Virus record (IMG/VR): IMGVR_UViG_3300010162_000393
Span: 72,865-136,864 of that record
Length of the DNA stretch: 64,000 nt
Strand: one strand, 5' to 3'
Origin: a virus
Taxonomy: Duplodnaviria > Caudoviricetes
Shown here one piece after another: positions 32,733 through 58,391 of this stretch. The position numbers were made by a program, and so were the translations under genes. The notes under the pieces are model-generated. The model had not been told where the DNA came from and ran no database searches. It was given only the letters and a program-made list of their open reading frames with translations. Each line of letters begins with the position of its first letter. Within the stretch, counting starts at the first letter, position 1.

Positions 32733-34718
32733 ATGATTAATAATTTTTTAGAAAGTGGTCTGGTTGGTAATATTGCATGGAACCAGGTCTCTGAACAAAG
32801 GAAAAAGATATCTGAAACTTGGGAAAAACTTGGTTTTACCGAAAACTTGCAAGGTGTTTTGAAAGAAAATATTTCGATGTTGTATGAAAATACAGCTCGT
32901 GCTCTTATTCACGAAGCAACAGATGCTACAAACTCCGGTTCTTTCGTAACCGTTGTATTTCCGCTTATTAGACGTGTATTCAGCAAATTACTTGCTAATG
33001 ACATCGTTTCTATTCAGGCGTTGAATTTACCTATTGGTAAATTGTTCTATATTAAACCCGTTACCTCTGAAAGAGAATGGGAAAACCTCGATGGTGATGG
33101 TAATGTATTATCCGGTAGCAACGCAAAACATACTGGTTTAATGGGTTACAATAGACATGATCGTAATTTTCAAAATCCGGGCAAAGCAGTTTTTGATCCT
33201 CTAACCAATACGTTTAGTGGACAAAAACAAGGTTTATACAACAACCGTTTTTATCTTCCTGATGAAGTTATCACAGGTACACCAAGTAACGAAAAACCGA
33301 TACCAACTTGGCAAACTCTCGACGCTGATAACACTTTTCCTGCTGATCCTACAAATCTTGATGATCGTAACAAACCAGTCGTAACTCGTTATATGCAGAC
33401 TTCTCTGTATGATTTGTTCTATGACGAATTCTTGTATGACCACTCAAAAGGACGTGCTTGGGTTAAAATTTCCGATATGGTAGAAGTTGTTCAATTGAAT
33501 AACAAAAGAACTTTTGATCTTCTTGCTCCCGGTGCTGATTTTATTGAATCTCGTGAAGATGGTTCAATCCGAAACGCTATTTTGAAAATCAAAGGTTTTA
33601 ACAACTACAACGCAGGTCTGTTAATTGGTCCTGACGGAGACGAAATGGATACCGAAACTTTCCTTGCTTCGTTGAAAGTAATTACTAAAAACGCTATTGC
33701 TGATACCAGTGCTAGTGGTTATTCGGAATTTAAAGAAAATGAAAATCTTCCTATCAGGTTGTTGCCACAAAAGTATGGTAAAGCTATCGTAGAAAGAGAT
33801 AATTTCTGCGGTGCTGACGGTACAATGTATGTTGAAGTAGACTTCAAAAAACCTACCGTTAATCATGGTATAACCGTTGATGGTTATATTGGTATTGACC
33901 CGGCTAATAAAGTTGGTGATGTTGAATTCTACGTATGTTGGATACAATATGATAGTCTTGAACTTGAAACCGAAATCGGTGAAGTATCTTTCCAAATTGA
34001 CAGTGTTACCATTGCAGTTGAAGAACGTAAATTGAGAAGCACATGGTCGCCTGAACAGGCACAAGACGTTGCTGCTTTCCATAACATTGACGCAGAAGCA
34101 GAACTTACCAGCCTTTTGGCACAACAAGTTTCTGTTGAAATTGACCGTGAAATTCTCCGCGACCTTAAAACCGCTGCTCCTTGGCAACTGAGCTGGGACT
34201 TCAACGGTTGGAGACGTACTGCTACAACAAGTACTAACTACACACAGAAGGATTGGAATCAGGAACTGATTACGAAAATTAATCAAATTTCCGCACAGAT
34301 TAACAAGACTTGTTTAATGGGTGGTGCTAACTTCATCGTTGTTTCTCCGGAAATCAGTGCAGTTTTCGATAACCTTGAATACTTCCACGCTACTAACGCC
34401 GCTCCTGGTGAAGAGGAATACTCTTTGGGTATGGAAAAAGTTGGTAATTTGAGTGGTCGTTATCAAGTGTATGTAGACCCTTATTCACGCCATTGGACGC
34501 TTTTGGTTGGACACAAAGGAAAAAGTATGTTGGACACAGGTTACATATATGCTCCGTATGTGCCTCTGCAGCTGACACCAACTCTATTTAATCCGTTTAA
34601 CGCTGCGCCTGTAAAATTTATAATGACGCGCTACGCAAAGAAAGTTGTTAATAACAAATTCTATGGATTGGTAAAGGTTCATGGTTTAACTACTTGGGAT
34701 ACCAACGAATTGAGATAA
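32733..34718 (+). CDS. Major capsid protein (T4 gp23-like)
   Basis: FPLIRRVF...LLANDIVSIQ..PIGKLFY; RKLRSTWSPEQAQDV.AFHNIDAEAEL..EIDREI; GYIYAPYVPL; TRYA. Confidence 0.95.
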   Translation: MINNFLESGLVGNIAWNQVSEQRKKISETWEKLGFTENLQGVLKENISMLYENTARALIHEATDATNSGSFVTVVFPLIRRVFSKLLANDIVSIQALNLPIGKLFYIKPVTSEREWENLDGDGNVLSGSNAKHTGLMGYNRHDRNFQNPGKAVFDPLTNTFSGQKQGLYNNRFYLPDEVITGTPSNEKPIPTWQTLDADNTFPADPTNLDDRNKPVVTRYMQTSLYDLFYDEFLYDHSKGRAWVKISDMVEVVQLNNKRTFDLLAPGADFIESREDGSIRNAILKIKGFNNYNAGLLIGPDGDEMDTETFLASLKVITKNAIADTSASGYSEFKENENLPIRLLPQKYGKAIVERDNFCGADGTMYVEVDFKKPTVNHGITVDGYIGIDPANKVGDVEFYVCWIQYDSLELETEIGEVSFQIDSVTIAVEERKLRSTWSPEQAQDVAAFHNIDAEAELTSLLAQQVSVEIDREILRDLKTAAPWQLSWDFNGWRRTATTSTNYTQKDWNQELITKINQISAQINKTCLMGGANFIVVSPEISAVFDNLEYFHATNAAPGEEEYSLGMEKVGNLSGRYQVYVDPYSRHWTLLVGHKGKSMLDTGYIYAPYVPLQLTPTLFNPFNAAPVKFIMTRYAKKVVNNKFYGLVKVHGLTTWDTNELR

Positions 34719-34805: not shown

Positions 34806-37058
34806 TCAGGTTGGATATACTTTATTGTTATATTCATACACAACATTTCCGTTGTCGTACATTTCTACAAATCCCTCCAACTTCATTATCTCACGATTAT
34901 CCATACCCTTCGGATATTTTACCAAATCATCATCACCTATAAATCGACTGGCACCTTTGAATCGTAAAGAGTTGTTGGTTATTGTTCTCCCCGTTTTCAA
35001 ATGAATCCAATAACCAGCAGGTTTATTATATTTTACAAATTTGAAATCATCAAGATGTATGTTGTCGCCGCCAAGATTCAAATTCAAATAACAAATACAA
35101 CTCGTTGGGTTATACGTGGTTTTGAAATAATTCCACATTTTGGATACACCACCCTGAATAGTTATGTTCGGTTTGAAACATAACCGGACTAATTCCCATT
35201 CATATTTCTTGTTGAAACGCGGTTGCCCGAATGTCATTACACCAACTAATTCATTTTCATAAAATAAAGCAATACAATACTTCTGTCCATTTGATTTGTT
35301 TTGAATGTGGTGTTCATCTAAAAACAGGTTACACTCTTTCTGTGGTATTTCTTTTATTTCACATTTTCTTGCGCCAATTTTTATTTTGTTTTTACCTATT
35401 TTTGAACGGATTATGTTTAACATCTTTGTTTCGGATATATTATCATATATTGAAATCAATGTATATCCATTATCTTTTGCTAATTTCCATTTATTAAAAT
35501 GATAATCAGGTGTAATTGGAACATTTTCTGTTGTAAACCCTCTTATGAATCCGTAACCATACGTTGAGTTATGTGTAAATGTTGGATTTATTTCTATTAA
35601 AAGATTTTCTATTTTTAAATCATATGAAAAATTATTAATACGAAATTCTTCTTCACATTTAATATTAAAATGTTTTTTTATTAAATTCAGCCATTTCAAA
35701 TTTATCTTGGAGGTTACATTTGACGCTTTTTGGTACTTTTCTGTTAAACAATAATGTGGTACACCGTATCTTTCAAGATTGGTTTGTATACGTTTTTCTT
35801 GAAATTCTGGTACTAATAGAACATGTTTTTCTCCATACCTTTCAAGATTAGTTTGTTGCATTTTTTTAACAACATCTTTATTTTTAACAGGATTTGGTAC
35901 ACCATATTTTTTAAGATTAGTTTCTTTTATTTTTTCTTTAATTTCTGTTGATTGAAATGGGTTTTCACATCCGAATTTTTTAATAAAAGTTTGTACGTTT
36001 TTTTTCTTTATTACGTCTATTATTTCCGGAACTTGAAAAGGGTTTTTGTATCCATACCTTTCAATATAACTTTTTTCTTTTTTGTTCTTTATATCTTCTG
36101 ATTTTGATACATGTGAAACCCCATATTTTTTGATATTGGTTTCTATTGTTTTTATTTTAAAAGAACATTTACTACAAAAACATGTTTTTTGTAATTCTAA
36201 CGCACTGATTGTTTTTTCTATAATTTTACCACATTCTTGGCATTTACAAGGTAATTTACTTCTTTTATTAACATAGTTATTCCAATCCAAAACATATGGA
36301 AATTCTTCTTTATTTATAATATGTGTTTTTGTTTTTGTTGCATTTACTATACCACATTTACGACAAAAACAAGTGTTTTTCCTATCTAATAAATCAATTG
36401 GTTTATATGTTGTATTTCCACACCCATCACATTTACATGGAAGTTTTGTTGAAATTGTTTGATAACCGTTCCATTCTAAAACCATTGGGTAATCTTCTTT
36501 GTTAATAATTCTCTTTCCGTGTTTCTCTATTTTATTTTTCACTTTCTTATTTTGAACAGTTTCTGATTGAGATGGATTTTCAACCCCATACTTTTCTTTC
36601 ATAGTATTTTTGAAATCTTCTGATTGATAATAATTTTCAACGCCGTATATTTTAGTATTTGTTTGTTTTCTCTTTGTTGAAGTGCAATTTTCACAAACAC
36701 TACCACTATTGCTTCTTCTTTTACATCTATCTATCATGTAAATACTTCTATTAAAAGAATTACCACAAATATCACATTTACATGGTAGTGGTGTTTGGGT
36801 GTTTTCGTAACCACTCCAATCTAAAACCATTGGGTAATCCTCATGTTTTGGTTCCCTTGTTCTATTTTTACCACCGTTTTTATGACCACATTCACGACAA
36901 AAACAAGTTTTCCTATAATCCAAATCATTAATACTTCTAAAAATAACTTCATCACAAGTTTCACATTTGCACGGTAACTTGCTTTTTGTATTTTTAAAAT
37001 TACTCCAATCTAATACCATTGGATAATCTTCGTGATTTATTTCTTTCTTTTTAAGCAT
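34806..37058 (-). CDS. Hef-like homing-endonuclease-type protein with zinc-ribbon and YGV repeats
   Basis: Four YPxVLxW..LPCKCxxC..CxxC repeats, multiple KYGV/RYG repeats, YDLKIENLLIEIN nuclease-like motif, IGARKCEIKEI...WELVRLC C-terminus. Confidence 0.7.
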   Translation of the reverse strand: MLKKKEINHEDYPMVLDWSNFKNTKSKLPCKCETCDEVIFRSINDLDYRKTCFCRECGHKNGGKNRTREPKHEDYPMVLDWSGYENTQTPLPCKCDICGNSFNRSIYMIDRCKRRSNSGSVCENCTSTKRKQTNTKIYGVENYYQSEDFKNTMKEKYGVENPSQSETVQNKKVKNKIEKHGKRIINKEDYPMVLEWNGYQTISTKLPCKCDGCGNTTYKPIDLLDRKNTCFCRKCGIVNATKTKTHIINKEEFPYVLDWNNYVNKRSKLPCKCQECGKIIEKTISALELQKTCFCSKCSFKIKTIETNIKKYGVSHVSKSEDIKNKKEKSYIERYGYKNPFQVPEIIDVIKKKNVQTFIKKFGCENPFQSTEIKEKIKETNLKKYGVPNPVKNKDVVKKMQQTNLERYGEKHVLLVPEFQEKRIQTNLERYGVPHYCLTEKYQKASNVTSKINLKWLNLIKKHFNIKCEEEFRINNFSYDLKIENLLIEINPTFTHNSTYGYGFIRGFTTENVPITPDYHFNKWKLAKDNGYTLISIYDNISETKMLNIIRSKIGKNKIKIGARKCEIKEIPQKECNLFLDEHHIQNKSNGQKYCIALFYENELVGVMTFGQPRFNKKYEWELVRLCFKPNITIQGGVSKMWNYFKTTYNPTSCICYLNLNLGGDNIHLDDFKFVKYNKPAGYWIHLKTGRTITNNSLRFKGASRFIGDDDLVKYPKGMDNREIMKLEGFVEMYDNGNVVYEYNNKVYPT

Positions 37059-37091: not shown

Positions 37092-38525
37092 TCATTCCAA
37101 CATTTTTTGATTTTTCCATATATAACAATATCTCCCCCCATCATATATCCTGAATACCTTTCCATCATCGTATAATTGCTTCATCTCTTTATATATTTTT
37201 GGTTGCCTTTTTTTGAATATCAAACCACTTTTGTACACCCAATCATATCTAGATGGATTTATATGTTTTAATTCAAATCCCATTATTTCATATGATTTAC
37301 CCGTAAATTTTGACCTATCTACGTATGCCACAACGCTTTTAGGGTTATATTTTCTTATGAAATATTTGAATACTTTTGATTTACCACCAATAACAGAATA
37401 CCCTTCTTTACACACCTCTCTTTTTACTTCCCATTCTGCCGCAGGGGTTTGTGTAAAAATGTTTTTTGAAATTTTATTCAATAACATTACTAATACCAAT
37501 TCTGATTTATGAAAAAGACCGATATAATTACTAGCAGTAACCGATTTTTGTTGATGGTATTCTAACAATGGTTTAGCGGTTTTAAGATCTATTTCCTGAA
37601 TTGTGCAATCTCGTGCAAACACTTTGTGCTCACATAACCCCAACTGCGCTTTTATATATGATTTTATTTGTTCTCGATTATTCAACCATTCGTAATCCCA
37701 TACATATATAAGTCTAATATCATTATTCTGACAAACTGTAATTTTATCATAATGATAATTTTTATGTTTAGCAATATCATTATGATAATATGTTCCATTA
37801 TATTCAAATGCTATTTGTTTTGAAGGTATCAAAATATCTATTTCTATACCAGAAACTTTTTTATTTTCTACAATATCAAAACCACAAGATATGATAAAAT
37901 TTTTCAATTCATTTTCTCCGGTTGAAGTTGATTGTTGGCATCTTCGACACATTCTACTACCTCTTCTATCAAACATATTATTAATAGCGGTTTCAAAAAA
38001 TTCACCACATTCTACACATTTAATTTCTATATTTGTAGTACGTCTTTTTTCATAAACAAATGGTTTAAAAATTACACCAATATGTTTAAGTCTTTTTTCA
38101 ATCTCTTCTTGTGATAAATTTTGGTTTTGACTTATTTTTTTAATACCACACGATTTACATAATGTATGTCCGTTAATTATTTCAATAAACTTGTTTTGTT
38201 TTAATTTACCACATCCGGTGCATTTATATTCTATAATAGTTTCATTATTTTGATAAACAAATTGGTTGAAAATAATAGATTTCTTCAACAGTTCTTGTTC
38301 TGCTTCATTTTGTGTTCTCTTTTTTTTACCGGCACATGCTTTGCATTTAGAATGTCCATTCAAAACATGTACTATCTGACTTTCTTTAATATTGTTACAT
38401 ATTGGGCAGTAATATGATATTTTTTGATGCATCTCAACATATGTAAATGGTAGGAAAACAACGTGTTCTTTCAACAGGTTTTCTATTTCTTCTTGAGAGT
38501 ATTTAATATTTCTTCTTTTTAACAT
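37092..38525 (-). CDS. Hef-like homing-endonuclease-type protein
   Basis: Three CxxC repeats, EIDILIP..IAFEYNGTYYH, VFARDC...GGKSK...YVDRS. Confidence 0.75.
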   Translation of the reverse strand: MLKRRNIKYSQEEIENLLKEHVVFLPFTYVEMHQKISYYCPICNNIKESQIVHVLNGHSKCKACAGKKKRTQNEAEQELLKKSIIFNQFVYQNNETIIEYKCTGCGKLKQNKFIEIINGHTLCKSCGIKKISQNQNLSQEEIEKRLKHIGVIFKPFVYEKRRTTNIEIKCVECGEFFETAINNMFDRRGSRMCRRCQQSTSTGENELKNFIISCGFDIVENKKVSGIEIDILIPSKQIAFEYNGTYYHNDIAKHKNYHYDKITVCQNNDIRLIYVWDYEWLNNREQIKSYIKAQLGLCEHKVFARDCTIQEIDLKTAKPLLEYHQQKSVTASNYIGLFHKSELVLVMLLNKISKNIFTQTPAAEWEVKREVCKEGYSVIGGKSKVFKYFIRKYNPKSVVAYVDRSKFTGKSYEIMGFELKHINPSRYDWVYKSGLIFKKRQPKIYKEMKQLYDDGKVFRIYDGGRYCYIWKNQKMLE

Positions 38526-48026: not shown

Positions 48027-48422
48027 ATGCAAAATTTCTTCATAAATAAAGATAGTATTCTACCAACTCTTGAAATGAAATTAATAGAACAAGGTCGTGT
48101 TGGTTCCGATGCACATGTATCATTTTATAATGCACTTCAAAATGCTGATATATTTTTCACTATGATTGATGTTGATACAGGTGTTACAAAAGTAGCGCAT
48201 CAACCTGCTATTCTAATAGAATCTGATGGTTGTACCGATCAATTTAACATAGCATACGAATGGAAAAAACGGGACGTATCACGTCCCGGAAAATACAGAG
48301 GTCAATTTGAAATTATATTCTCTGATGATAATATACCAGAGTTCGCAAGTAAGAACTTAGTGGTTCCTATACATAACGAACTTATGATAAATGTTACCGA
48401 AGGATCAATCAAAAAACACTAA
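48027..48422 (+). CDS. BppU-like baseplate/fibre-associated protein
   Basis: FFINKDSILPTLEM...YEW...PGKYRGQFEI. Confidence 0.55.
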   Translation: MQNFFINKDSILPTLEMKLIEQGRVGSDAHVSFYNALQNADIFFTMIDVDTGVTKVAHQPAILIESDGCTDQFNIAYEWKKRDVSRPGKYRGQFEIIFSDDNIPEFASKNLVVPIHNELMINVTEGSIKKH

Positions 48423-51936: not shown

Positions 51937-53201
51937 ATGCGCGGAAAAAACAAAACGTTAGAAGAGGTTATTAAAATAGCAAAAGAAATTCATGGAGACA
52001 AATATGATTATTCGATTACCGAGTATAAAGGTTCTAAAAAAAACATGTCTATAATTTGTAAAAAACACGGATGTTTTGAACAAAGAGCGTCTTCTCATTT
52101 AAAAGGAAATGGTTGTCCACAGTGTGGTGGATAGATGAGTGGATTGAAAAGGCAAAAACTATACATGGTAATAAATATGATTATTCTATTGTTGATTATA
52201 ACGGTTCTTATCAAAATGTTTCTATAATTTGTTCGATTCACGGTGTTTTTACTCAAAAAGCATATAAACATTTATCTGGGCGCGGATGTCAAAAATGTGT
52301 TAATAAGTATCGACCAACAACAGATGAGTGGGTTGAAAGAGCAAAAAACGTACATGGTGATAAATATGATTATTCAAAAACTATTTATGTTAATGCTAGA
52401 AAAAAAGTTCTTATAATTTGTTCTGAACACGGAGAATTTTGGCAAACCCCATATGATCATTTAAATGGATGTGGGTGCTTGAGTTGTAGTGGGAAAAATA
52501 TGTTAACAATAGATGAATTTATAAAAATCGCAAATAAAACACATGGTTGTAAATATGATTATTCAAATGTAAAATATAATAATTCTCAACAAAAGGTGTC
52601 TATTATTTGTCCAAAACATGGGGAATTTTTACAAATACCTGTTCATCATTTAAGAGGTAGTGGTTGCCCAAAATGTGCTGGTAAAAATTTAACAACAGAA
52701 GAATGGGTTGTAAAAGTAAAAGATGTTCATAAAAATAAATATGATTATTCAAAAACAAAATATGTTAATGTTAAAACTAAAATTTGTATTGTTTGTTCAA
52801 AACATGGGGAATTTTGGAAAACACCTAGTGAACATTTATCAGGGCAAGGTTGTCCAAATTGTAACTCTTCAAAAATGGAAAATATTGTTGTTAGATTTTT
52901 GGAAACACGCGGTGTTTTACATGAGAGAAGATATAGAGGGTTTGAGTGGTTAAAAAATGAGAAAAAACTCGAATTAGATTTTTATTTACCAGAACACAAT
53001 ATTGCGATTGAATGTCAAGGGGTACAACATTTTAAACCGATTGATTGTTGGGGTGGTGATAAATCTTTAGATTATATTCAAAAAAACGATAAATTAAAAA
53101 AACGCTTGTGTGATGATTATAATATCCCTCTTTACTACATAAATTACAACGACAATATCGAAGAAAAGTTAAATGATATTTTTACTAATATTTTAAAATA
53201 A
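51937..53201 (+). pseudogene. Frameshifted zinc-ribbon-repeat (DUF723-like) endonuclease with a DUF559-like C-terminus
   Basis: KYDYS..IIC..HG.F....HL.G.GC..C repeats continue across a frame break at about 52130; LELDFYLP..IAIECQGVQH. Confidence 0.7.
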
Positions 53202-53227
53202 AAAAACCCCAAGTTTAAAACTTGGGG
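53199..53227 (-). terminator. Intrinsic terminator
   Basis: CCCCAAGTTT/AAACTTGGGG perfect stem with T-run on the minus strand. Confidence 0.8.
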
Positions 53228-53245
53228 ATAAAGAATTACTTGAAA

Positions 53246-53506
53246 AAAAGACTTGCGGTCGCGATAAGTATGAGTGCGATTCTTTCCGCTTTAAAAATTT
53301 CTTTCACTCTTTTTTGCGAGTCGGGGAAGTCCCCAACGAACATTGTTGGTAAGAGGAACTTACATTTAGTCTTTTAAAAAACAAGCGGTTTGTAAGCGAA
53401 TATTAACCATTATCAATGTAGGAACAAAACTATGCTTGTTTATCGGTAAAAAGCGGTAACTACAAACTCGTTCATGTAACGTGGATAGGAAGTTACTTTG
53501 CTTTTT
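53246..53506 (-). ncRNA. Array of three structurally conserved hairpin RNAs with variable loops
   Basis: Each unit has an outer stem, internal loop, inner stem, invariant UUCCU and CCGC; stems differ in sequence but keep pairing; late motif upstream and terminator downstream. Confidence 0.65.
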
Positions 53507-53510
53507 ATAT

Positions 53511-53519
53511 TATAAATAT
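53511..53519 (-). promoter_or_regulatory. Late promoter variant ATATTTATA driving the RNA array
   Basis: Minus strand ATATTTATAATATAAAAAG directly before the first unit. Confidence 0.55.
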
Positions 53520-53524
53520 ACGAT

Positions 53525-55348
53525 TTATTCAAATAATTTCAAAATATCATCTTTGGATAATATTTTATCTTTTGAATAGGTCATATTTACATTTGCTTTT
53601 TTAAGAACATCGTCAATGGTAAGATAATGTTCATGTGATGAAGTGAATATATCTAATATTATTCCATTGATATTATCAATACTTGAAACACGTTTTTTTG
53701 ACGACTGCATATTTGCAAACACAAATTTGTTTTCAAAAAATGTTCCGATTATTTTTTCACCTTCAATAATATCATCATATTGATATATGATGTTATCCGG
53801 GTTTACCATATAATTTTTGAAACCTATTATTGTTTTTACATTTTCTTTTGCGAAGAAAACCTTATATTTTGCTTTCCCTTCTGTTGGAAAATCAGATGTT
53901 TCGCGTTTTTCTCTAACAAAACAATATGGATTAACCCTAACACTACCTACTGTTTGTGCTAAATTACTTTTTTTGTAAAGTAGTTCGCTTGCGCCATTTG
54001 GGGCGGTAGTCATATCACCGGAATATATAAATGTTTTTTCCTCATTATAATAACATGTATTCCATCCTATTTTCATTCCGGATTTATCTATGTATGATAA
54101 ATCAAGATCTCGTGCACCATCCTTTTCATGCCAATATATTCCAATAATTGTGTCTTCAAAATCCAAATCAACCCATGAATATAAAGGAATTTCACCCATA
54201 AACGATTTTTCGGAAGTTGGACAAACGAGATTTATATTTAACGGTAACTCAACAACATTTGTTCCAACGTTGTCTTTTACTTTTTTCACAATATGACCTA
54301 TCAATGTGTTTTTTAGAGAAATTAGTCTATGTACGGTTTTAGGTGTTATTTCCGATTTATTACTATTATCTTTCACAAACATTTTTCCATTTCTAACAAA
54401 ATATATGTTGTGTTTCAATGTGCTATTCAATTTAATGTTAATCAAATTGTATAACGATATCATTTTATATGTTGTTAGATTTTCAATAGAATTATTTATT
54501 GATTCAAATATAAATTCATCCAAAGAACTATCCGGAGAATTTATTACTGAAATAACCTTTGTCCAAAACGGTGCATTGAATGGAGTATGATTTGTTCTTG
54601 CCATTCTTCTGATTTTGTTTATCTTGTATTGATTTTGTTTCTTCAATGCAAGGAACAATGGTTTGAATCTGAAAAATATTTGAGAAAATCTTTCAAGTAG
54701 AATATTAGGAATAATAACATTACTGTTTTTCAAGGTTTCAATTGTTTTTTTGTCTTTGATTAACATTGTTTTTCCAGTTACTTGATAGATAAAACACCTT
54801 AATGCGCTTTCAGGATTGGTTGGATATATACCCATATTAACCGCTATGATTGCTTGCGCTTCCCTGTTTTTTACCTTGTCAATATCAACACAGTCGCCAA
54901 GAACATCTAAAATGTTTTCAATAGTGGTTTGTTTCAACGCCACACCAGAATATAACATGTTCTGGCAGCGCGTTATTGCTTCATCAAAAGGAATACCTTT
55001 GATAAATTTTACATTCATTGATTTCAAGTCAATCGGAGTGTTATTTACAATAAATGGTTGTTCCAACTCTAATGTGTACGAAGTAAAATAATGGAGAATT
55101 TGATCCATAAACAATTCAAAACGTGTTCGAGAAGTTACATCTTCAAATGTTTTATAAAATGTTGTATTTGGATTGAATTTATTTTCCTTTACCCATTCCA
55201 TTACACATTCTATGTCGATGTTATTATCGCACACATATCCGTACTCTAACAATTTCTTGACCGTTTTGTCATATCTTGTTACGTTTTCCTCAACGACTGC
55301 CATCTTGAAGAGGTCTAATATCGTTTTCTTTTGTTTTGAATTTAGCAT
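53525..55348 (-). CDS. Large helical protein with a C-terminal TerD-like domain
   Basis: IIGIYW...RDLDLS...IGWN...YSGDMTTAPNGASE TerD-like signature; N-terminal NTTFYKTF...DQILHYFTSY. Confidence 0.6.
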   Translation of the reverse strand: MLNSKQKKTILDLFKMAVVEENVTRYDKTVKKLLEYGYVCDNNIDIECVMEWVKENKFNPNTTFYKTFEDVTSRTRFELFMDQILHYFTSYTLELEQPFIVNNTPIDLKSMNVKFIKGIPFDEAITRCQNMLYSGVALKQTTIENILDVLGDCVDIDKVKNREAQAIIAVNMGIYPTNPESALRCFIYQVTGKTMLIKDKKTIETLKNSNVIIPNILLERFSQIFFRFKPLFLALKKQNQYKINKIRRMARTNHTPFNAPFWTKVISVINSPDSSLDEFIFESINNSIENLTTYKMISLYNLINIKLNSTLKHNIYFVRNGKMFVKDNSNKSEITPKTVHRLISLKNTLIGHIVKKVKDNVGTNVVELPLNINLVCPTSEKSFMGEIPLYSWVDLDFEDTIIGIYWHEKDGARDLDLSYIDKSGMKIGWNTCYYNEEKTFIYSGDMTTAPNGASELLYKKSNLAQTVGSVRVNPYCFVREKRETSDFPTEGKAKYKVFFAKENVKTIIGFKNYMVNPDNIIYQYDDIIEGEKIIGTFFENKFVFANMQSSKKRVSSIDNINGIILDIFTSSHEHYLTIDDVLKKANVNMTYSKDKILSKDDILKLFE

Positions 55349-55387
55349 TTTGTTTAAATTTAAGGTTTTGTGTATAAATATACACCA

Positions 55388-56542
55388 TTAATCTTTTAAA
55401 CCCAATTTTTCTCTAACCATTTTACCTGTTACAATAATATTTGGATTATTTTCTGAATTAGATATTTCAAACATATAATCTCCCAATACCTTTTCCATGG
55501 TTGTTCGCAAACTTCTTGCTCCCGTTTTGTTTATCATAGAATAATCAGCGATTGCGTCATAAGCATCTTCTTCAAATGATAGTTTTATACCATCAATTTC
55601 AAACAACCATTGGTATTGATTTACAATACTATTCTTAGGTTCGGTTAATATTCTTCTAATAGCATTTCTATTTAATGTTTCTGTTGATGTTAGTATTGGT
55701 AATCTACCAACAAGTTCTCTCAACATTCCGAAAGATTGTAAATCTTCTGATGTTGTATATGAAAATACCCTTTCAGGATCATATTGTTCTGCTTCGTCTG
55801 GTTTGTTGTATCCGATTTTTTTTACGTTTAATCGACGCTCAATCGTTTTTTCCATACCGTCAAACGCACCCATACAAATGAACAATACGTTTGTTGTATC
55901 AAAATCTACGTGTTTTTTTCCAGCGTCATAACTACGTTTTTCAGCAGGATAACATCTTATTACATCCCCTTCCATCATTTTCAATAATTCATACTGCACA
56001 TCCATTCCTGATACATCTCTTTTAATTGATTCGCTCTGATCTTTGTTTCGTATCTTATCAATTTCATCAATTATGATAACACCGTGTTGCGCCTTATTCA
56101 AATCTCCGCCAGCAGCGGTATATAAACCGTTTAATACGTTATCCACATCGCTTCCGACATATCCGGATGCTGTCATTGTTGAAGCATCTGAAATATAAAA
56201 TGGTACATTTAAGCACTGACAAATCGTTTTCAAGAGATAAGTCTTCCCTGAACCGGTACCGCCTATCAATAAGATGTTAGATTTATCAATCAATCTACCA
56301 CTATCCTTGTTTCTCATATTATGTGAAATGCGTTTATAGTGGTTATAAACCGCAGTACACAATACTCTTTTTGTTTCCTCATTACCAATAACATATTCAT
56401 CCAACCTTGCTTTTAATACAGATGGTTTAATAAGAGATAGTGTTGGTGATTGCATTTCTGCAATTTGTTTATAAACATCTATCTGTTTGTTGTCGTCGCT
56501 TGAAGCGAATTTTGGTGGTCTTACTATATTTGTCGTCGCCAT
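55388..56542 (-). CDS. clpX: ClpX-like AAA+ unfoldase lacking the N-terminal zinc domain
   Basis: AVYNHYKR, KSNILLIGGTGSGKT, GYVG.DV, IIDEIDK, RDVSG, NVLFICMGAF, GARSLR. Confidence 0.92.
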   Translation of the reverse strand: MATTNIVRPPKFASSDDNKQIDVYKQIAEMQSPTLSLIKPSVLKARLDEYVIGNEETKRVLCTAVYNHYKRISHNMRNKDSGRLIDKSNILLIGGTGSGKTYLLKTICQCLNVPFYISDASTMTASGYVGSDVDNVLNGLYTAAGGDLNKAQHGVIIIDEIDKIRNKDQSESIKRDVSGMDVQYELLKMMEGDVIRCYPAEKRSYDAGKKHVDFDTTNVLFICMGAFDGMEKTIERRLNVKKIGYNKPDEAEQYDPERVFSYTTSEDLQSFGMLRELVGRLPILTSTETLNRNAIRRILTEPKNSIVNQYQWLFEIDGIKLSFEEDAYDAIADYSMINKTGARSLRTTMEKVLGDYMFEISNSENNPNIIVTGKMVREKLGLKD

Positions 56543-56599: not shown

Positions 56600-57496
56600 T
56601 CACTCATCGGTTTCCGGTGGGGTCGTATCTAACAACACAAACGGTTTGACTGTTGTTTTATCAACCCTTTCCTGTGCGGTTTGACAATACTTCGGGTCTA
56701 TATCAATACCCAAAAAGTTTCTACCATGTTCTTTTGCTACTTTGGTAGTGGTTCCGCAACCATTGAAAATATCTAAAATGGTGTCACCTCTACCGGAAAA
56801 CAATTTGATTGCTCTATACGCAATACCCTCTGGAAACATTGCCGGGTGTCCGTATTCTTTCATTTTTGCTTCACCTGGTAATGACCACACACCGTTTTTG
56901 ACGAAATCGCTAAACTCTGTCTTTTGCATGTCGTCCTGTTCTTTATGGTTGGGTATTTCATGTTTTATATTACCTTTCGCATATACTTCGATAAACTCTT
57001 GTGTGTGTTTCATAAATGGACTAGAACTAGATCTATAACTTCCCCAACATGAATATGCGCAATTTCTTTGATTTTTTTCCCATATTATTTCATCACGCCA
57101 TATCCATTTTTGTTGAATAAACCATGCTGTTATAATATGATGTGTTGGAATAAAATCCGAATACAATGGCATAACATTTATGATTATTCTCCCACCATAT
57201 TTTACAACCCTTGCTGTTTCACCTAATATTTCAAACAAGTTATCAAAATAATCACTATTGGTTGAATTATCATCATATTCGTTATAACTCTTTCCAAAAT
57301 TATATGGTGGAGATGTTAATACCAAATCAATACAATTATCCGGTAGTTTTTTCAAAACCTCTAAACTATCACCACATATAATCTTATTCTTAAATTCTTC
57401 CGGTATTTCAACATTAACTTTTGAAAAGTTATTGTCATTTGCGTAAAAATGTAATACCCTTTTTCTCTTACGTTTTTTGATTTCAGTTTTTGCCAT
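56600..57496 (-). CDS. Beta-class N4-cytosine/N6-adenine DNA methyltransferase
   Basis: LTSPPYN, IIWEK, HPAMFP, LDIFNGCGTT. Confidence 0.9.
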   Translation of the reverse strand: MAKTEIKKRKRKRVLHFYANDNNFSKVNVEIPEEFKNKIICGDSLEVLKKLPDNCIDLVLTSPPYNFGKSYNEYDDNSTNSDYFDNLFEILGETARVVKYGGRIIINVMPLYSDFIPTHHIITAWFIQQKWIWRDEIIWEKNQRNCAYSCWGSYRSSSSPFMKHTQEFIEVYAKGNIKHEIPNHKEQDDMQKTEFSDFVKNGVWSLPGEAKMKEYGHPAMFPEGIAYRAIKLFSGRGDTILDIFNGCGTTTKVAKEHGRNFLGIDIDPKYCQTAQERVDKTTVKPFVLLDTTPPETDE

Positions 57497-58391
57497 TATT
57501 AAAAATATTATTAATGTATTGAACACCTTTTTGTGTTACTAACGGTTGTAATGTATATCTGGTTTTATTTGGAACCAAAACCTTACGCATTTTGAAAAAA
57601 CCTTTGTTGATAAACTCTTGTTTCGGTTCGTTCCTATCCTTGAAGAAAATTCCTCTCTCACGTAAATTTTTAAAAAGTAGATTTCTTCCAAATGGTAATT
57701 CTAATACCTTTGCAACTTCACCGATGTTCAAATCCTCGTTGTCAACATCTATTACTTGATTAACATAGTCTAATCTCGGTTTTATTTCAAAATACCAATT
57801 TTCTGCTTTTTCAATTCTGTTATTCAAAAATGTTATTTGGTTTCTTTGTTCAAAGTAAACTGTTTTTGCTTTTTCGATTCGATTTTCTAAAAAAGTCGTT
57901 TTTTCTTTCAGTTGAAGATTTTCTAATTCAAAACGTTTTAAAGTGGATTGATATACATTTTTGATTCGTTCTTCAATGTCTTTTTCTGTATCCCCTTCTT
58001 TGGTTAAAACATATCCACCATGTTTGCGAATTGATGGTAAAACCTCTGATGTTATCCACTTGCGAAATTGCTTCGCTATTGGTTTACGACTATCAAGAAC
58101 TACGTCGTACATACCATCTTCGTTAACAAACAGGGCTTGTTGTTTCCTACCAAGTCTATCAAAGATGGGGTGGGTTGAAACCACCCCATCTTCAAGTCGG
58201 CGATTAACTTCTTTTGCTTCAAGTAGTAGTACCTTACAAAGGTCAGTTAGACAAAATAAAGGATTTTCAGAATCTCCTACAACCCTAACTTCTCCAAACT
58301 CTTTGTGATTAAAAATTTGAACCCCGTTAGAATTAGGTATATAAGTGACCTGTGTATCTTCTTCTTTTCTATTTTTATTAATATTCTCCAT
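57483..58391 (-). CDS. BRO-N / KilA-C antirepressor
   Basis: FNHKEFGEVRV..PLFCL, SRKPIAKQFRKWITSEVLPSIRKHGGY, GRNLLF..LR, VTQKG. Confidence 0.88.
   Translation of the reverse strand: MENINKNRKEEDTQVTYIPNSNGVQIFNHKEFGEVRVVGDSENPLFCLTDLCKVLLLEAKEVNRRLEDGVVSTHPIFDRLGRKQQALFVNEDGMYDVVLDSRKPIAKQFRKWITSEVLPSIRKHGGYVLTKEGDTEKDIEERIKNVYQSTLKRFELENLQLKEKTTFLENRIEKAKTVYFEQRNQITFLNNRIEKAENWYFEIKPRLDYVNQVIDVDNEDLNIGEVAKVLELPFGRNLLFKNLRERGIFFKDRNEPKQEFINKGFFKMRKVLVPNKTRYTLQPLVTQKGVQYINNIFNNGKN

What the first reader, a model, noticed from the sequence alone, without database searches (positions are those of the whole stretch)
53199..55348. Candidate new protein-RNA system: array of structured RNAs with variable loops beside a TerD-like-domain protein
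Seen: the 320-bp gap after the 607-aa gene holds three units with the same architecture but different sequences. Plus-strand pairings are: unit C AAAAAGC(53448-54)/GCTTTTT(53500-06) with inner GTAACT/AGTTAC; unit B AAACAAGC(53379-86)/GCTTGTTT(53434-41) with inner TTTGT/ACAAA; unit A AAAAGACT(53246-53)/AGTCTTTT(53368-75) with inner TAAGT/ACTTA. Every unit has GCGG near one arm and an invariant AGGA abutting the inner stem (UUCCU in the minus-strand RNA). The loops are unrelated: 25 nt (AUCCACGUUACAUGAACGAGUUUGU), 26 nt (ACAUUGAUAAUGGUUAAUAUUCGCUU) and 84 nt (itself structured). A late-promoter motif (53511-19, minus) sits directly before the first unit and a strong terminator (53199-227) after the last, so this looks like a dedicated transcript. 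Inference: a conserved protein-binding handle with swappable loops resembles a guide or decoy array. It is conceptually like CRISPR/TIGR arrays or Ro60-Y RNAs, but no Cas, Nop or TROVE motif was recognised. The adjacent helical + TerD-like protein is the likely partner. Loop B contains UAAUGGUUA, reminiscent of a tRNA D-loop, hinting at tRNA mimicry or anti-defence (weak).
Basis: partly seen in the sequence, partly recalled or inferred. Interest (0 to 1): 0.92.

Follow-up and report, generated by a model that had tools for sequence, protein, structure and literature searches.

The report
Y-RNA-like hairpins beside TerD protein
Three small folded RNAs behind an uncharacterised 607-residue phage protein belong to a widespread, uncatalogued RNA family that nearly always sits beside this protein and often carries tRNA look-alike parts, so the pair is probably an undescribed RNA-protein particle built like Ro60 with its Y RNAs.

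Summary
The gap 53202-53524 (minus strand) holds a promoter-like motif, three hairpin units and a strong terminator.

- **The motif.** Two units fit a "handle": outer stem ending G-C/C-G, AWA bulge, 6-bp inner stem ending G-C/U-A, invariant UCCU, variable loop, U-AC, bulged C. A covariance model of it scores them at E 6e-10 and 7e-8.
- **Co-occurrence.** The model finds 150 units in 62 of 77 related viral loci and 55 units in 41 of 43 MAG loci. Every unit is on the protein gene's strand.
- **Neighbours.** No protein-coding neighbour is conserved.
- **Loops.** In relatives they carry anticodon-arm mimics, YrlA-like tRNA bodies or a whole tRNA.
- **The protein.** It has a TerD-fold domain (Z 10.6) behind a helical N-domain. 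It matches nothing in Pfam, PHROGs, NCBIfam, PADLOC or PDB sequences.
- **Ro60.** No Ro60/TROVE gene is present in this contig or in five large relatives.

Best reading: trans-acting Y-RNA-like RNAs bound by this protein. Binding and expression are untested. A guide-array reading has no support.

The scan has met this RNA-protein pair before in other genomes, and other follow-up notes reached the same reading.

The parts
53525..55348 (-). Gene for the 607-aa partner protein (P0001): helical N-domain plus TerD-fold domain plus a short C-terminal helical tail
   Evidence: ORF. No hit in Pfam, PHROGs, NCBIfam or PADLOC. More than 521 unnamed homologues and 1298 clusters at 50% identity for the N-domain profile. 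AlphaFold model with pLDDT 80.6.
54194..55348 (-). N-terminal helical domain (residues 1-385), with a HEAT-like repeat stretch at about residues 259-360 and conserved basic residues
   Evidence: Model with pLDDT 78. Only generic helical-repeat matches, Z up to 10 over about 70 residues. Foldseek gives nothing at E<=0.001; Rsr 2nvo appears only at E about 1. Invariant R227, K229, R319, K381 and others.
53648..54169 (-). TerD-fold beta-sandwich domain (residues 394-567) with conserved DLDLS and SGD motifs
   Evidence: VIA-align Z 10.6 to 2qz7_B (rmsd 3.1, 135 aligned) and Z 9.8 to 2kxt. Foldseek top hit is TerD 3ibz. D414, D416, S443, G444, D445 and E455 are invariant.
55373..55382 (-). Promoter-like motif TATATTTATA 25 nt upstream of the protein gene's ATG
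   Evidence: It is the same motif as the one before the RNA array.
53511..53520 (-). Promoter-like motif TATATTTATA directly before unit C, conserved at this place in relatives
   Evidence: 6 in the window against 1.45 expected. Same motif before the arrays in L002, L004 and L009.
53448..53506 (-). Unit C: canonical handle (outer AAAAAGC/GCUUUUU, AAA bulge, inner GUAACU/AGUUAC, UCCU, C bulge) with a 25-nt loop
   Evidence: R1 43.0 bits, E 5.6e-10; fold.
53379..53441 (-). Unit B: canonical handle (outer AAACAAGC/GCUUGUUU, inner UUUGU/ACAAA, UCCU, CC) with a 26-nt loop holding a central UGG
   Evidence: R1 36.0 bits, E 6.6e-8. A mid-loop GG is enriched in the family: 42 of 87 short loops against 18.8 +/- 3.1 in shuffles.
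53246..53375 (-). Unit A: long unit with outer stem AAAAGACU/AGUCUUUU, UAAGU-UCCU, a structured 84-nt interior and U-ACUUAU-C-GC. It is a rearranged version of the handle.
   Evidence: Conserved in L002, L004 and L009. An internal helix GNNG..NNGC / GCNN.CNNC covaries, with 4 pairs changed on both sides. Not detected by R1.
53199..53227 (-). Intrinsic terminator closing the array (9-bp G+C-rich stem, then a U run)
   Evidence: The Rfam near-hits here are all terminator-type matches. Relatives have a different terminator hairpin at the same place.

Best explanation
The three units are genes for small trans-acting RNAs of one family. Each RNA is closed by a conserved 'handle': two stacked helices separated by an AWA bulge opposite a single bulged C, then an invariant G-C/U-A/UCCU corner. 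The apical loop is a free 'cargo' slot.

The 607-aa protein encoded just upstream most likely binds the handle, giving a ribonucleoprotein organised like Ro60 with Y RNAs. The protein is a helical repeat domain followed by a metal-binding-type TerD fold. One protein would serve many RNAs, with the loops acting as adaptors or decoys. In relatives the cargo is an anticodon-arm mimic, a YrlA-type tRNA body without a free CCA end, or a whole tRNA. The particle probably deals with tRNA-recognising factors, through RNA surveillance or repair, or through decoying of tRNA-targeting host enzymes during infection.

Shown: the motif, its covariation, its strand-specific co-occurrence with the gene, the TerD fold, and the tRNA-like cargo in relatives. 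Inferred: transcription from the TATATTTATA motif to the terminator, processing into units, direct binding, and the biological role.
For: - **Co-occurrence.** Model R1 finds 150 units in 62 of 77 viral loci and 55 units in 41 of 43 MAG loci that played no part in building the model. Both MAG misses are cut off upstream. All 205 hits are on the gene's strand and mostly abut the gene.
- **Only conserved neighbour.** Among 82 non-redundant locus groups, no protein-coding neighbour is shared by more than 5.
- **Covariation.** 10 of 11 pairs show compensatory changes and 97.5% of cells are paired, against 70% in shuffles and 34-47% when partners are slid. The closing pairs and UCCU stay fixed, as expected for a protein-contacted site.
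- **One protein, many RNAs.** Each of five large phage genomes has a single copy of the gene. Units number 1 to 8, and some lie 40-250 kb from the gene. This argues for trans action.
- **Cargo.** Loops hold YrlA-like cores (Rfam RF02553, 25-47 bits, model positions 23-88 only), two weak full-length alignments, a full tRNA with CCA (46 bits), and anticodon-arm-like hairpins in 23 of 122 loops against 4.6 +/- 2.0 in shuffles.
- **No canonical Ro60.** No TROVE gene in this contig or in five large relatives, four of them 98-100% complete.
- **Genomic setting.** The gene sits in same-strand tRNA arrays in 16 of 60 viral loci and in cyanophages S-CRM01 and S-CBWM1. In bacterial MAGs it lies among housekeeping genes, once near a T4-type RNA ligase.
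- **Precedent.** rsr with tandem Y RNAs, and phage phiLo Ro60 with two upstream Yrl RNAs (PMC4201824, PMC12135203). A conserved bulged C is the key Ro60 determinant in Y RNA stems (PMC4030889).
Against: - There is no binding or expression data. No RNA run is listed for this termite-gut phage.
- TerD domains are not known RNA binders. The N-domain shows only generic helical-repeat similarity and no specific likeness to Ro60.
- The window's own loops C, B and A gave no tRNA-like hit, so the cargo argument rests on relatives.
- Unit A is not recognised by the model.
- 15 of 77 viral loci have no unit within 3 kb. Five of these are truncated, but L019 is clean.
- Units were collected with tools that reward pairing, so the percentage paired is partly circular. 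The strand and position bias is not.
- Placement directly upstream of the gene in most loci would also fit a cis-regulatory leader.
Confidence: 0.6

Rival explanations
1. The handle is a processing or stability cassette for stable RNAs in tRNA islands. It would be a clamp recognised by a host or phage RNase, or a protective stem. On this reading the protein gene is a resident of such islands, perhaps the processing factor itself, and not a stoichiometric RNP partner.
For: One unit nests a complete tRNA with an encoded CCA inside the handle (L042:2013-2128). Arrays lie between tRNA genes and next to tmRNA genes. Units in the window are separated by only 3-6 nt, so they need cleavage to separate.
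Against: In MAG loci without tRNA arrays, one unit still accompanies the gene in 41 of 43 cases. The invariant single-stranded UCCU, the fixed bulges and the fixed closing pairs go beyond what helix-recognising RNases need. Most loops (about 26 nt, A/U-rich) hold nothing that would need releasing.
Confidence: 0.15
2. The units are cis-acting autoregulatory elements of the protein's own mRNA, as leader or trailer binding sites, in the manner of ribosomal-protein leaders.
For: In most loci the units lie 20-350 nt upstream of the start codon on the same strand.
Against: In the window and its close relatives the array lies downstream of the gene, behind its own copy of the promoter-like motif and before a terminator. 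Some phages hold units 40-250 kb away from their single gene copy. Up to 8-10 units with tRNA-like cargo are excessive for an operator.
Confidence: 0.1
3. The units form a guide-RNA array, CRISPR/TIGR-like. The variable loops would be guides that direct the protein to complementary nucleic acids.
For: The layout is a constant scaffold with a variable segment, in tandem arrays with varying copy number.
Against: Loops match nothing in the 137-kb phage contig beyond chance: longest matches are 10-15 nt against 11-12 nt on average (up to 14) for shuffled loops. Loop length ranges from 17 to about 100 nt, and many loops are folded tRNA modules. The handles themselves differ in sequence between units. 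The protein shows no nuclease, Cas or Nop-like feature.
Confidence: 0.05
4. The units are decayed tRNA genes or chance hairpins in an A+T-rich spacer, with no function of their own.
For: The gap lies where relatives of the gene often have tRNA genes.
Against: There is no tRNA signal. The motif is conserved with compensatory changes across loci whose proteins are only 26-45% identical. There are 205 hits on one strand and none on the other.
Confidence: 0.02

Closest known systems
Ro60/Rsr (TROVE + vWA) with bacterial and phage Y RNAs (YrlA, YrlB, Yrn1; Thermus phage phiLo Ro60 with Yrl1/Yrl2). Rfam RF02553; PMC4201824, PMC12135203.
   Same: - One protein gene is flanked by one to several tandem genes for small RNAs on the same strand.
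- Each RNA is closed by a bulged terminal stem with a conserved bulged C, and carries a modular apical part.
- In relatives that part is the same tRNA mimic as in YrlA: T arm, acceptor-like hairpin without a free CCA, and D arm, in that order.
- The protein is a helical-repeat domain followed by a domain of a divalent-metal-binding type.
- It occurs in large phages and in bacteria, sometimes near RNA ligases.
   Different: - No TROVE signal by Pfam, by a profile search against PDB sequences or by fold search.
- The C-terminal domain is a TerD beta-sandwich, not vWA.
- The handle lacks the Rsr motif GNCGAA(N)G and GGUCCGA. Instead it has AWA/C bulges and the GU-UCCU corner.
- Rfam YrlA matches only the tRNA-like core, below the gathering score, and not the window's units.
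- Most units have a short unstructured loop, and arrays reach 8-10 units.
TerD-family proteins of tellurite-resistance (Ter) operons (PF02342; PDB 2qz7, 2kxt, 3ibz)
   Same: Residues 394-567 share the fold (Z 10.6 and 9.8). DLD.S and SGD-type motifs are conserved at corresponding places.
   Different: The Pfam TerD model does not match. The domain is fused behind a 385-residue helical domain. There are no Ter operon neighbours. Its partner is an RNA, which is not known for any TerD protein.
tRNA genes and the stable RNAs of phage tRNA clusters (for example T4 species 1 and 2 RNAs; from my own knowledge)
   Same: Located in or beside phage tRNA arrays, on the same strand and compactly spaced. 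The 5' half of the handle's inner stem and loop (NNNNG-UUC) reads like the T-arm consensus. This last point is my own observation and is untested.
   Different: No cloverleaf is found (ARAGORN and Rfam are negative for the window). The variable part sits in the hairpin loop, not between acceptor and T stems.
CRISPR and TIGR guide arrays
   Same: Tandem units with a constant and a variable part next to a dedicated protein gene.
   Different: The constant part is conserved in structure and in a few bases only, not as a repeated sequence. No Cas, Tas or Nop protein is present, and the loops match no target.

Membership tests
Ro60/Rsr-Y RNA ribonucleoproteins | The protein contains a TROVE (HEAT-repeat ring) domain detectable by sequence | tested here: not met
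   No Pfam hit at E<=0.01 for P0001 or for seven homologues. A profile of 38 homologues finds no PDB sequence at E<=10. The N-domain profile finds 1298 clusters with only about 120 weak ones, so there is no large tail of TROVE proteins.
Ro60/Rsr-Y RNA ribonucleoproteins | Ring-shaped HEAT-repeat fold like Ro60 (PDB 1yvr, 2nvo) | tested here: inconclusive
   The N-domain model matches only generic HEAT/ARM repeats over residues 259-360 (Z up to 10). Rsr 2nvo appears only as Foldseek rank 19 (E about 1, probability 0.10) and is not in the VIA top 50.
Ro60/Rsr-Y RNA ribonucleoproteins | C-terminal vWA domain with MIDAS | tested here: not met
   Residues 394-567 are a TerD beta-sandwich (Z 10.6 and 9.8). 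There is no vWA hit.
Ro60/Rsr-Y RNA ribonucleoproteins | The RNA carries the Ro/Rsr-binding motif (GGUCCGA, or GNCGAA(N)G in bacteria) in its terminal stem | tested here: not met
   The motif is absent from 53195-53525 and present in only 3 of 122 units. The motif is as defined in PMC4201824.
Ro60/Rsr-Y RNA ribonucleoproteins | Physical complex of protein and RNA | not testable with these tools
   This needs EMSA, RIP or cryo-EM. The complex predictor offered here handles proteins only.
YrlA (Rfam RF02553) | Reaches the family's gathering score (69 bits) over the whole model | tested here: not met
   The window gives no hit even at E<=10. Long units of relatives score 25-47 bits, mostly over model positions 23-88 only.
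tRNA | Cloverleaf detected by ARAGORN or Rfam RF00005 | tested here: not met
   No tRNA in the window or in the whole 137-kb contig.
TerD family (PF02342) | TerD beta-sandwich fold | tested here: met
   Z 10.6 to 2qz7_B (135 residues, rmsd 3.1) and Z 9.8 to 2kxt. The next unrelated fold scores Z 5.6.
TerD family (PF02342) | Match to the Pfam sequence model | tested here: not met
   No Pfam family at E<=0.01.
Handle-RNA family defined here (model R1) | Outer stem closed by G-C/C-G, 3-5-nt A-rich bulge, 5-6-bp inner stem ending G-C/U-A, UCCU, loop, U-AC, bulged C | tested here: met
   Units C and B score 43 and 36 bits, full length. Both were among the 44 units used to build R1, so these scores are not fully independent. 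Unit A has the sequence elements but a rearranged topology and is not scored.
CRISPR/TIGR arrays | Near-identical direct repeats with unique spacers, and an associated Cas/Tas effector | tested here: not met
   Units differ in stem sequence. There is no PADLOC or Pfam hit for the protein.

The most novel reading that the evidence does not exclude
This is a Ro60-independent ribonucleoprotein family spread through large phages and several bacterial phyla. A single HEAT-like/TerD protein holds interchangeable handle RNAs that display anticodon arms, tRNA bodies or other cargo. Phages would use the particle as a programmable set of decoys or adaptors against tRNA-targeting host defences (anticodon nucleases and the like), with the TerD domain acting as a Ca2+ or ligand switch.
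Probability: 0.25. Interest if true: 0.9.

Novelty: new variant of a known kind. Interest (0 to 1): 0.8.

Why it matters
If the protein does bind these RNAs, this is a second, independent solution to the Ro60/Y-RNA design. It is much more common in large phages than Ro60 itself. It would give a function to an uncatalogued protein family (more than 1000 clusters at 50% identity) and define an RNA family missing from Rfam.

It would also explain a recurrent unannotated element of phage tRNA islands. The tRNA-piece cargo links it to the current question of how phages cope with tRNA-cleaving defence systems. The handle-plus-cargo layout is simple enough (about 30 constrained nucleotides) to test directly and possibly to reuse as a display scaffold.

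Tried and rejected
- **Rfam.** No family at gathering score in the window or in 16 related loci apart from tRNA and tmRNA. At E<=10 only terminator-type near-hits appear.
- **ARAGORN.** No tRNA or tmRNA in the window or the whole contig.
- **Single-protein scan of viral contigs.** Found nothing. The alignment-based scan worked.
- **DNA search of the phage collection.** Only a 95-bp, 74% match in an unrelated Klebsiella phage, which lies in the homing-endonuclease gene.
- **Fused forms.** No longer fused forms of the protein. Longer homologues have no Pfam domain.
- **Fold searches.** The full model and the N-domain gave no specific match beyond TerD. The ESM Atlas returns only unnamed, mostly viral clusters.
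- **Sequencing runs.** Five DNA holders, all termite-gut metagenomes, and no RNA holder listed.
- **Guide test.** Loops against the phage contig gave no match beyond chance. The host genome is unknown, so it was not tested.
- **Weak third model hit.** 48362-48398 (+), 13 bits, E 0.4. It lies inside an ORF and has no outer stem, so I take it as chance.
- **Loci without a unit.** L016, L018, L019 and L023 have no unit within 3 kb, and the flanks of L019 show none by eye. The RNA may lie elsewhere, as in the genomes of L010, L025 and L030 (G002-G004).
- **Jug-phage paper (PMC12880540).** It concerns canonical short TerD genes, not this protein.
- **Literature.** Eight full-text searches found no description of this RNA or protein family.
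- **Complex prediction.** Not used, because it takes proteins only.


Full report
**What is there**

The window is the last 64 kb of a 136,864-bp viral contig, estimated 38% complete, so it comes from a jumbo phage. The sequence is held in termite-gut metagenomes.

Between the stop codon of a 607-aa minus-strand ORF (53525-55348) and a convergent homing-endonuclease gene (52113-53201, +) lies a 323-bp gap. Read on the minus strand, it contains:
- TATATTTATA (53520-53511)
- unit C (53506-53448)
- unit B (53441-53379)
- unit A (53375-53246)
- a 9-bp G+C-rich hairpin with a U run (53227-53199)

The stretch folds into exactly these hairpins (MFE -71 kcal/mol, z -3.2). ARAGORN and Rfam find nothing except terminator-like near-hits.

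**The protein**

P0001 has no match in Pfam, PHROGs, NCBIfam or PADLOC. A profile of its family finds no PDB sequence.

It has hundreds of unnamed homologues in metagenomes. The N-domain profile finds 1298 clusters at 50% identity.

An AlphaFold model (pLDDT 80.6) shows a helical N-domain, a beta-sandwich at residues 394-567 and a short helical tail. The beta-sandwich is a TerD fold. It scores Z 10.6 to 2qz7_B and 9.8 to 2kxt, well above the next unrelated fold at 5.6.

The N-domain, folded alone, gives only generic HEAT/ARM-repeat matches over residues 259-360. It shows no specific likeness to Ro60.

**The RNA motif recurs beside the protein**

The closest relatives are L002, L004, L005 and L009, with proteins 54-68% identical. 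They have the same gap after the gene, with two units and a terminator. The stems differ but still pair.

A scan of IMG/VR with the protein alignment gave 70 loci. A structural descriptor found the same architecture in most of them: 95 hits on the gene strand, none on the other strand, and only units C and B in the window.

The consensus, reads in order:
- an outer stem of at least 5 bp closed by G-C and C-G
- an A-W-A bulge
- a 6-bp inner stem ending G-C then U-A
- an invariant UCCU, usually followed by AU
- a loop of 17 to about 100 nt, A-rich
- U-AC and the 3' strand of the inner stem
- one bulged C
- the 3' strand of the outer stem

I built covariance model R1 from 44 units. It scores units C and B at 43 and 36 bits (E 5.6e-10 and 6.6e-8). 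Both units were among the 44 used to build the model, so these two scores are not fully independent.

R1 finds 150 units in 62 of 77 viral loci. In 43 MAG loci that played no part in building the model, it finds 55 units in 41 loci. The two misses are cut off upstream. All 205 hits are on the gene's strand.

On 120 distinct units, 10 of 11 pairs show compensatory changes. 97.5% of cells pair, against 70% after shuffling and 34-47% when partners are slid. Because the units were gathered with tools that reward pairing, the percentage paired is partly circular. The strand bias, the position and the diversity of pair types are not.

**The RNA is the only conserved neighbour, and it acts in trans**

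I clustered all ORFs of 120 loci into families. Across 82 non-redundant locus groups, no protein family neighbours the gene in more than 5 groups.

Each of five large phage genomes, four of them 98-100% complete, has one copy of the protein gene. Units number 1 to 8. In three genomes several units lie 40-250 kb from the gene. None of the five, nor this contig, has a TROVE/Ro60 gene.

This pattern of one protein and many RNAs, not always adjacent, speaks for trans-acting RNAs. It speaks against a mere mRNA leader.

**What the loops carry**

Most loops are about 26 nt and A/U-rich. About half have a central GG, usually UGGA: 42 of 87 against 18.8 +/- 3.1 in shuffles. Unit B has this feature.

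Longer loops are tRNA pieces:
- **Anticodon-arm mimics.** Hairpins with a 7-nt loop of the form C-U-NNN-A-A occur in 23 of 122 loops, against 4.6 +/- 2.0 in shuffles.
- **YrlA-like tRNA bodies.** The order is T arm, then an acceptor-like stem closed by a loop, then a D arm. This is the tRNA mimic of bacterial Y RNA YrlA. Rfam RF02553 matches these cores at 25-47 bits, below its 69-bit gathering score. Most matches cover model positions 23-88 only, so the Rsr-binding stem is not matched.
- **A whole tRNA.** One loop holds a complete tRNA with an encoded CCA and an 8-nt anticodon loop (L042:2013-2128).

The window's own loops gave no such hit. Unit A is a conserved long unit of the close clade. 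Its interior has a covarying helix, and its 3' part reads U-ACUUAU-C-GC, which is the standard 3' half of the handle. I read it as a rearranged handle.

**Genomic setting**

The gene lies inside same-strand tRNA arrays in cyanophages S-CRM01 and S-CBWM1 and in 16 of 60 viral loci. In Phass-1 the array is followed by a tmRNA gene.

In Bacteroidales, Selenomonadaceae and Fibrobacter MAGs the gene sits among housekeeping genes, with one unit just upstream. Fibrobacter adds a YrlA-like unit just downstream. One locus has a T4-type RNA ligase 1.7 kb away.

**Interpretation**

The design parallels Ro60 with Y RNAs. A protein gene is flanked by tandem genes for small RNAs. Those RNAs share a bulged terminal stem, including a conserved bulged C, and differ in a modular apical part that can be a YrlA-type tRNA mimic (PMC4201824, PMC4030889, PMC12135203).

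Membership in that family fails on every sequence test:
- no TROVE domain
- TerD instead of vWA
- no GNCGAA(N)G or GGUCCGA motif in the RNA

I therefore treat it as an analogue, possibly a very remote relative, and not as a member.

The most likely mechanism is that the protein grips the handle. The fixed G-C/C-G, G-C/U-A, UCCU, U and bulged C are the kind of invariant contacts a protein site leaves, while the rest of both stems covaries freely. The loop would then present cargo to tRNA-recognising factors. I give about 0.6 to direct binding. I give about 0.25 to the more specific idea that the particle decoys or adapts tRNA-targeting host enzymes.

**Promoter and transcript**

TATATTTATA occurs 6 times in the window against 1.45 expected. 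It stands before the array, before the protein gene and before the arrays of L002, L004 and L009. A dedicated, co-regulated transcript of about 310 nt ending at the terminator is therefore plausible. It is not the T4 late consensus, and its timing is unknown. No RNA data exist for this phage.

**Prior art**

Eight full-text searches and four protein libraries gave no description of this pair.

The scan's own notebook shows that the same RNA-protein pair was noticed in at least eight other genomes, and that other follow-up agents reached a Ro60/Y-RNA-like reading. I formed my reading before seeing those notes. I tested their main claims here:
- co-occurrence: yes
- anticodon-arm cargo: yes
- bacterial loci: yes
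- link to RNA repair: only one ligase-bearing locus seen

Noticed in passing
window 52113-53201 (+): A DUF723/HNH-type homing endonuclease gene (phrog_559, E 8e-82) lies convergent against the array's terminator. At this place relatives L002 and L004 go straight on to a same-strand gene of about 150-170 aa. It therefore looks like a mobile insertion specific to this phage.
   Followed up: partly
window 34806-37058 (-) and 37092-38525 (-): Two further large homing-endonuclease-like ORFs (phrog_3339 and phrog_559) sit in tandem next to the major head protein gene (32733-34718). The phage is rich in homing endonucleases.
   Followed up: no
window 55388-56542 (-); L002:2800-3942, L003:49-1197, L004:1582-2724: A ClpX-like AAA+ ATPase (AAA_2, ClpB_D2-small; phrog_4339) lies upstream of the TerD-protein gene in the close clade only: adjacent in the window and L002, one or two genes away in L003 and L004. 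L005 has a ClpB-like gene downstream. It is not conserved across the family, so it is probably clade synteny. A link with the particle is not excluded.
   Followed up: partly
L003:1258-1833, L004:3368-3928: An ECF-type sigma-70 factor gene sits between the AAA+ gene and the TerD-protein gene in two close relatives. It is absent at this place in the window. It may relate to the TATATTTATA promoter-like motif.
   Followed up: no
L042:2013-2128 (IMG/VR locus): A handle unit encloses a complete tRNA with an encoded CCA and an 8-nt anticodon loop. ARAGORN reads a four-base anticodon, ggaa. It could be a frameshift-suppressor-like tRNA delivered inside a handle.
   Followed up: partly
L008:6189-7100 (Phage Phass-1, OQ749652): An unannotated array of six handle units lies 1.3 kb downstream of the homologue and is followed directly by a tmRNA gene (78 bits). 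L052 and L060 also have tmRNA-like calls next to units.
   Followed up: partly
Genomes of L010, L025 and L030 (G002-G004): In three jumbo phages several handle units lie 40-250 kb away from the single TerD-protein gene, in small clusters (for example G004:136451-149171). I did not examine what lies around them.
   Followed up: no
L120:6811-8490, also L086 and L121 (Fibrobacter MAGs): A sigma-54 activator with a GAF domain follows the gene and its YrlA-like unit. This recalls RtcR next to rsr-yrlBA-rtcBA in Salmonella, but with GAF instead of CARF.
   Followed up: no
window 56600-57526 (-) and 57483-58391 (-): An N6/N4 DNA methyltransferase and a Bro-N/KilAC antirepressor-like gene lie upstream. 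The same pair is present in L002. In L004 the methylase appears to carry an intein (faint Pfam hit).
   Followed up: no
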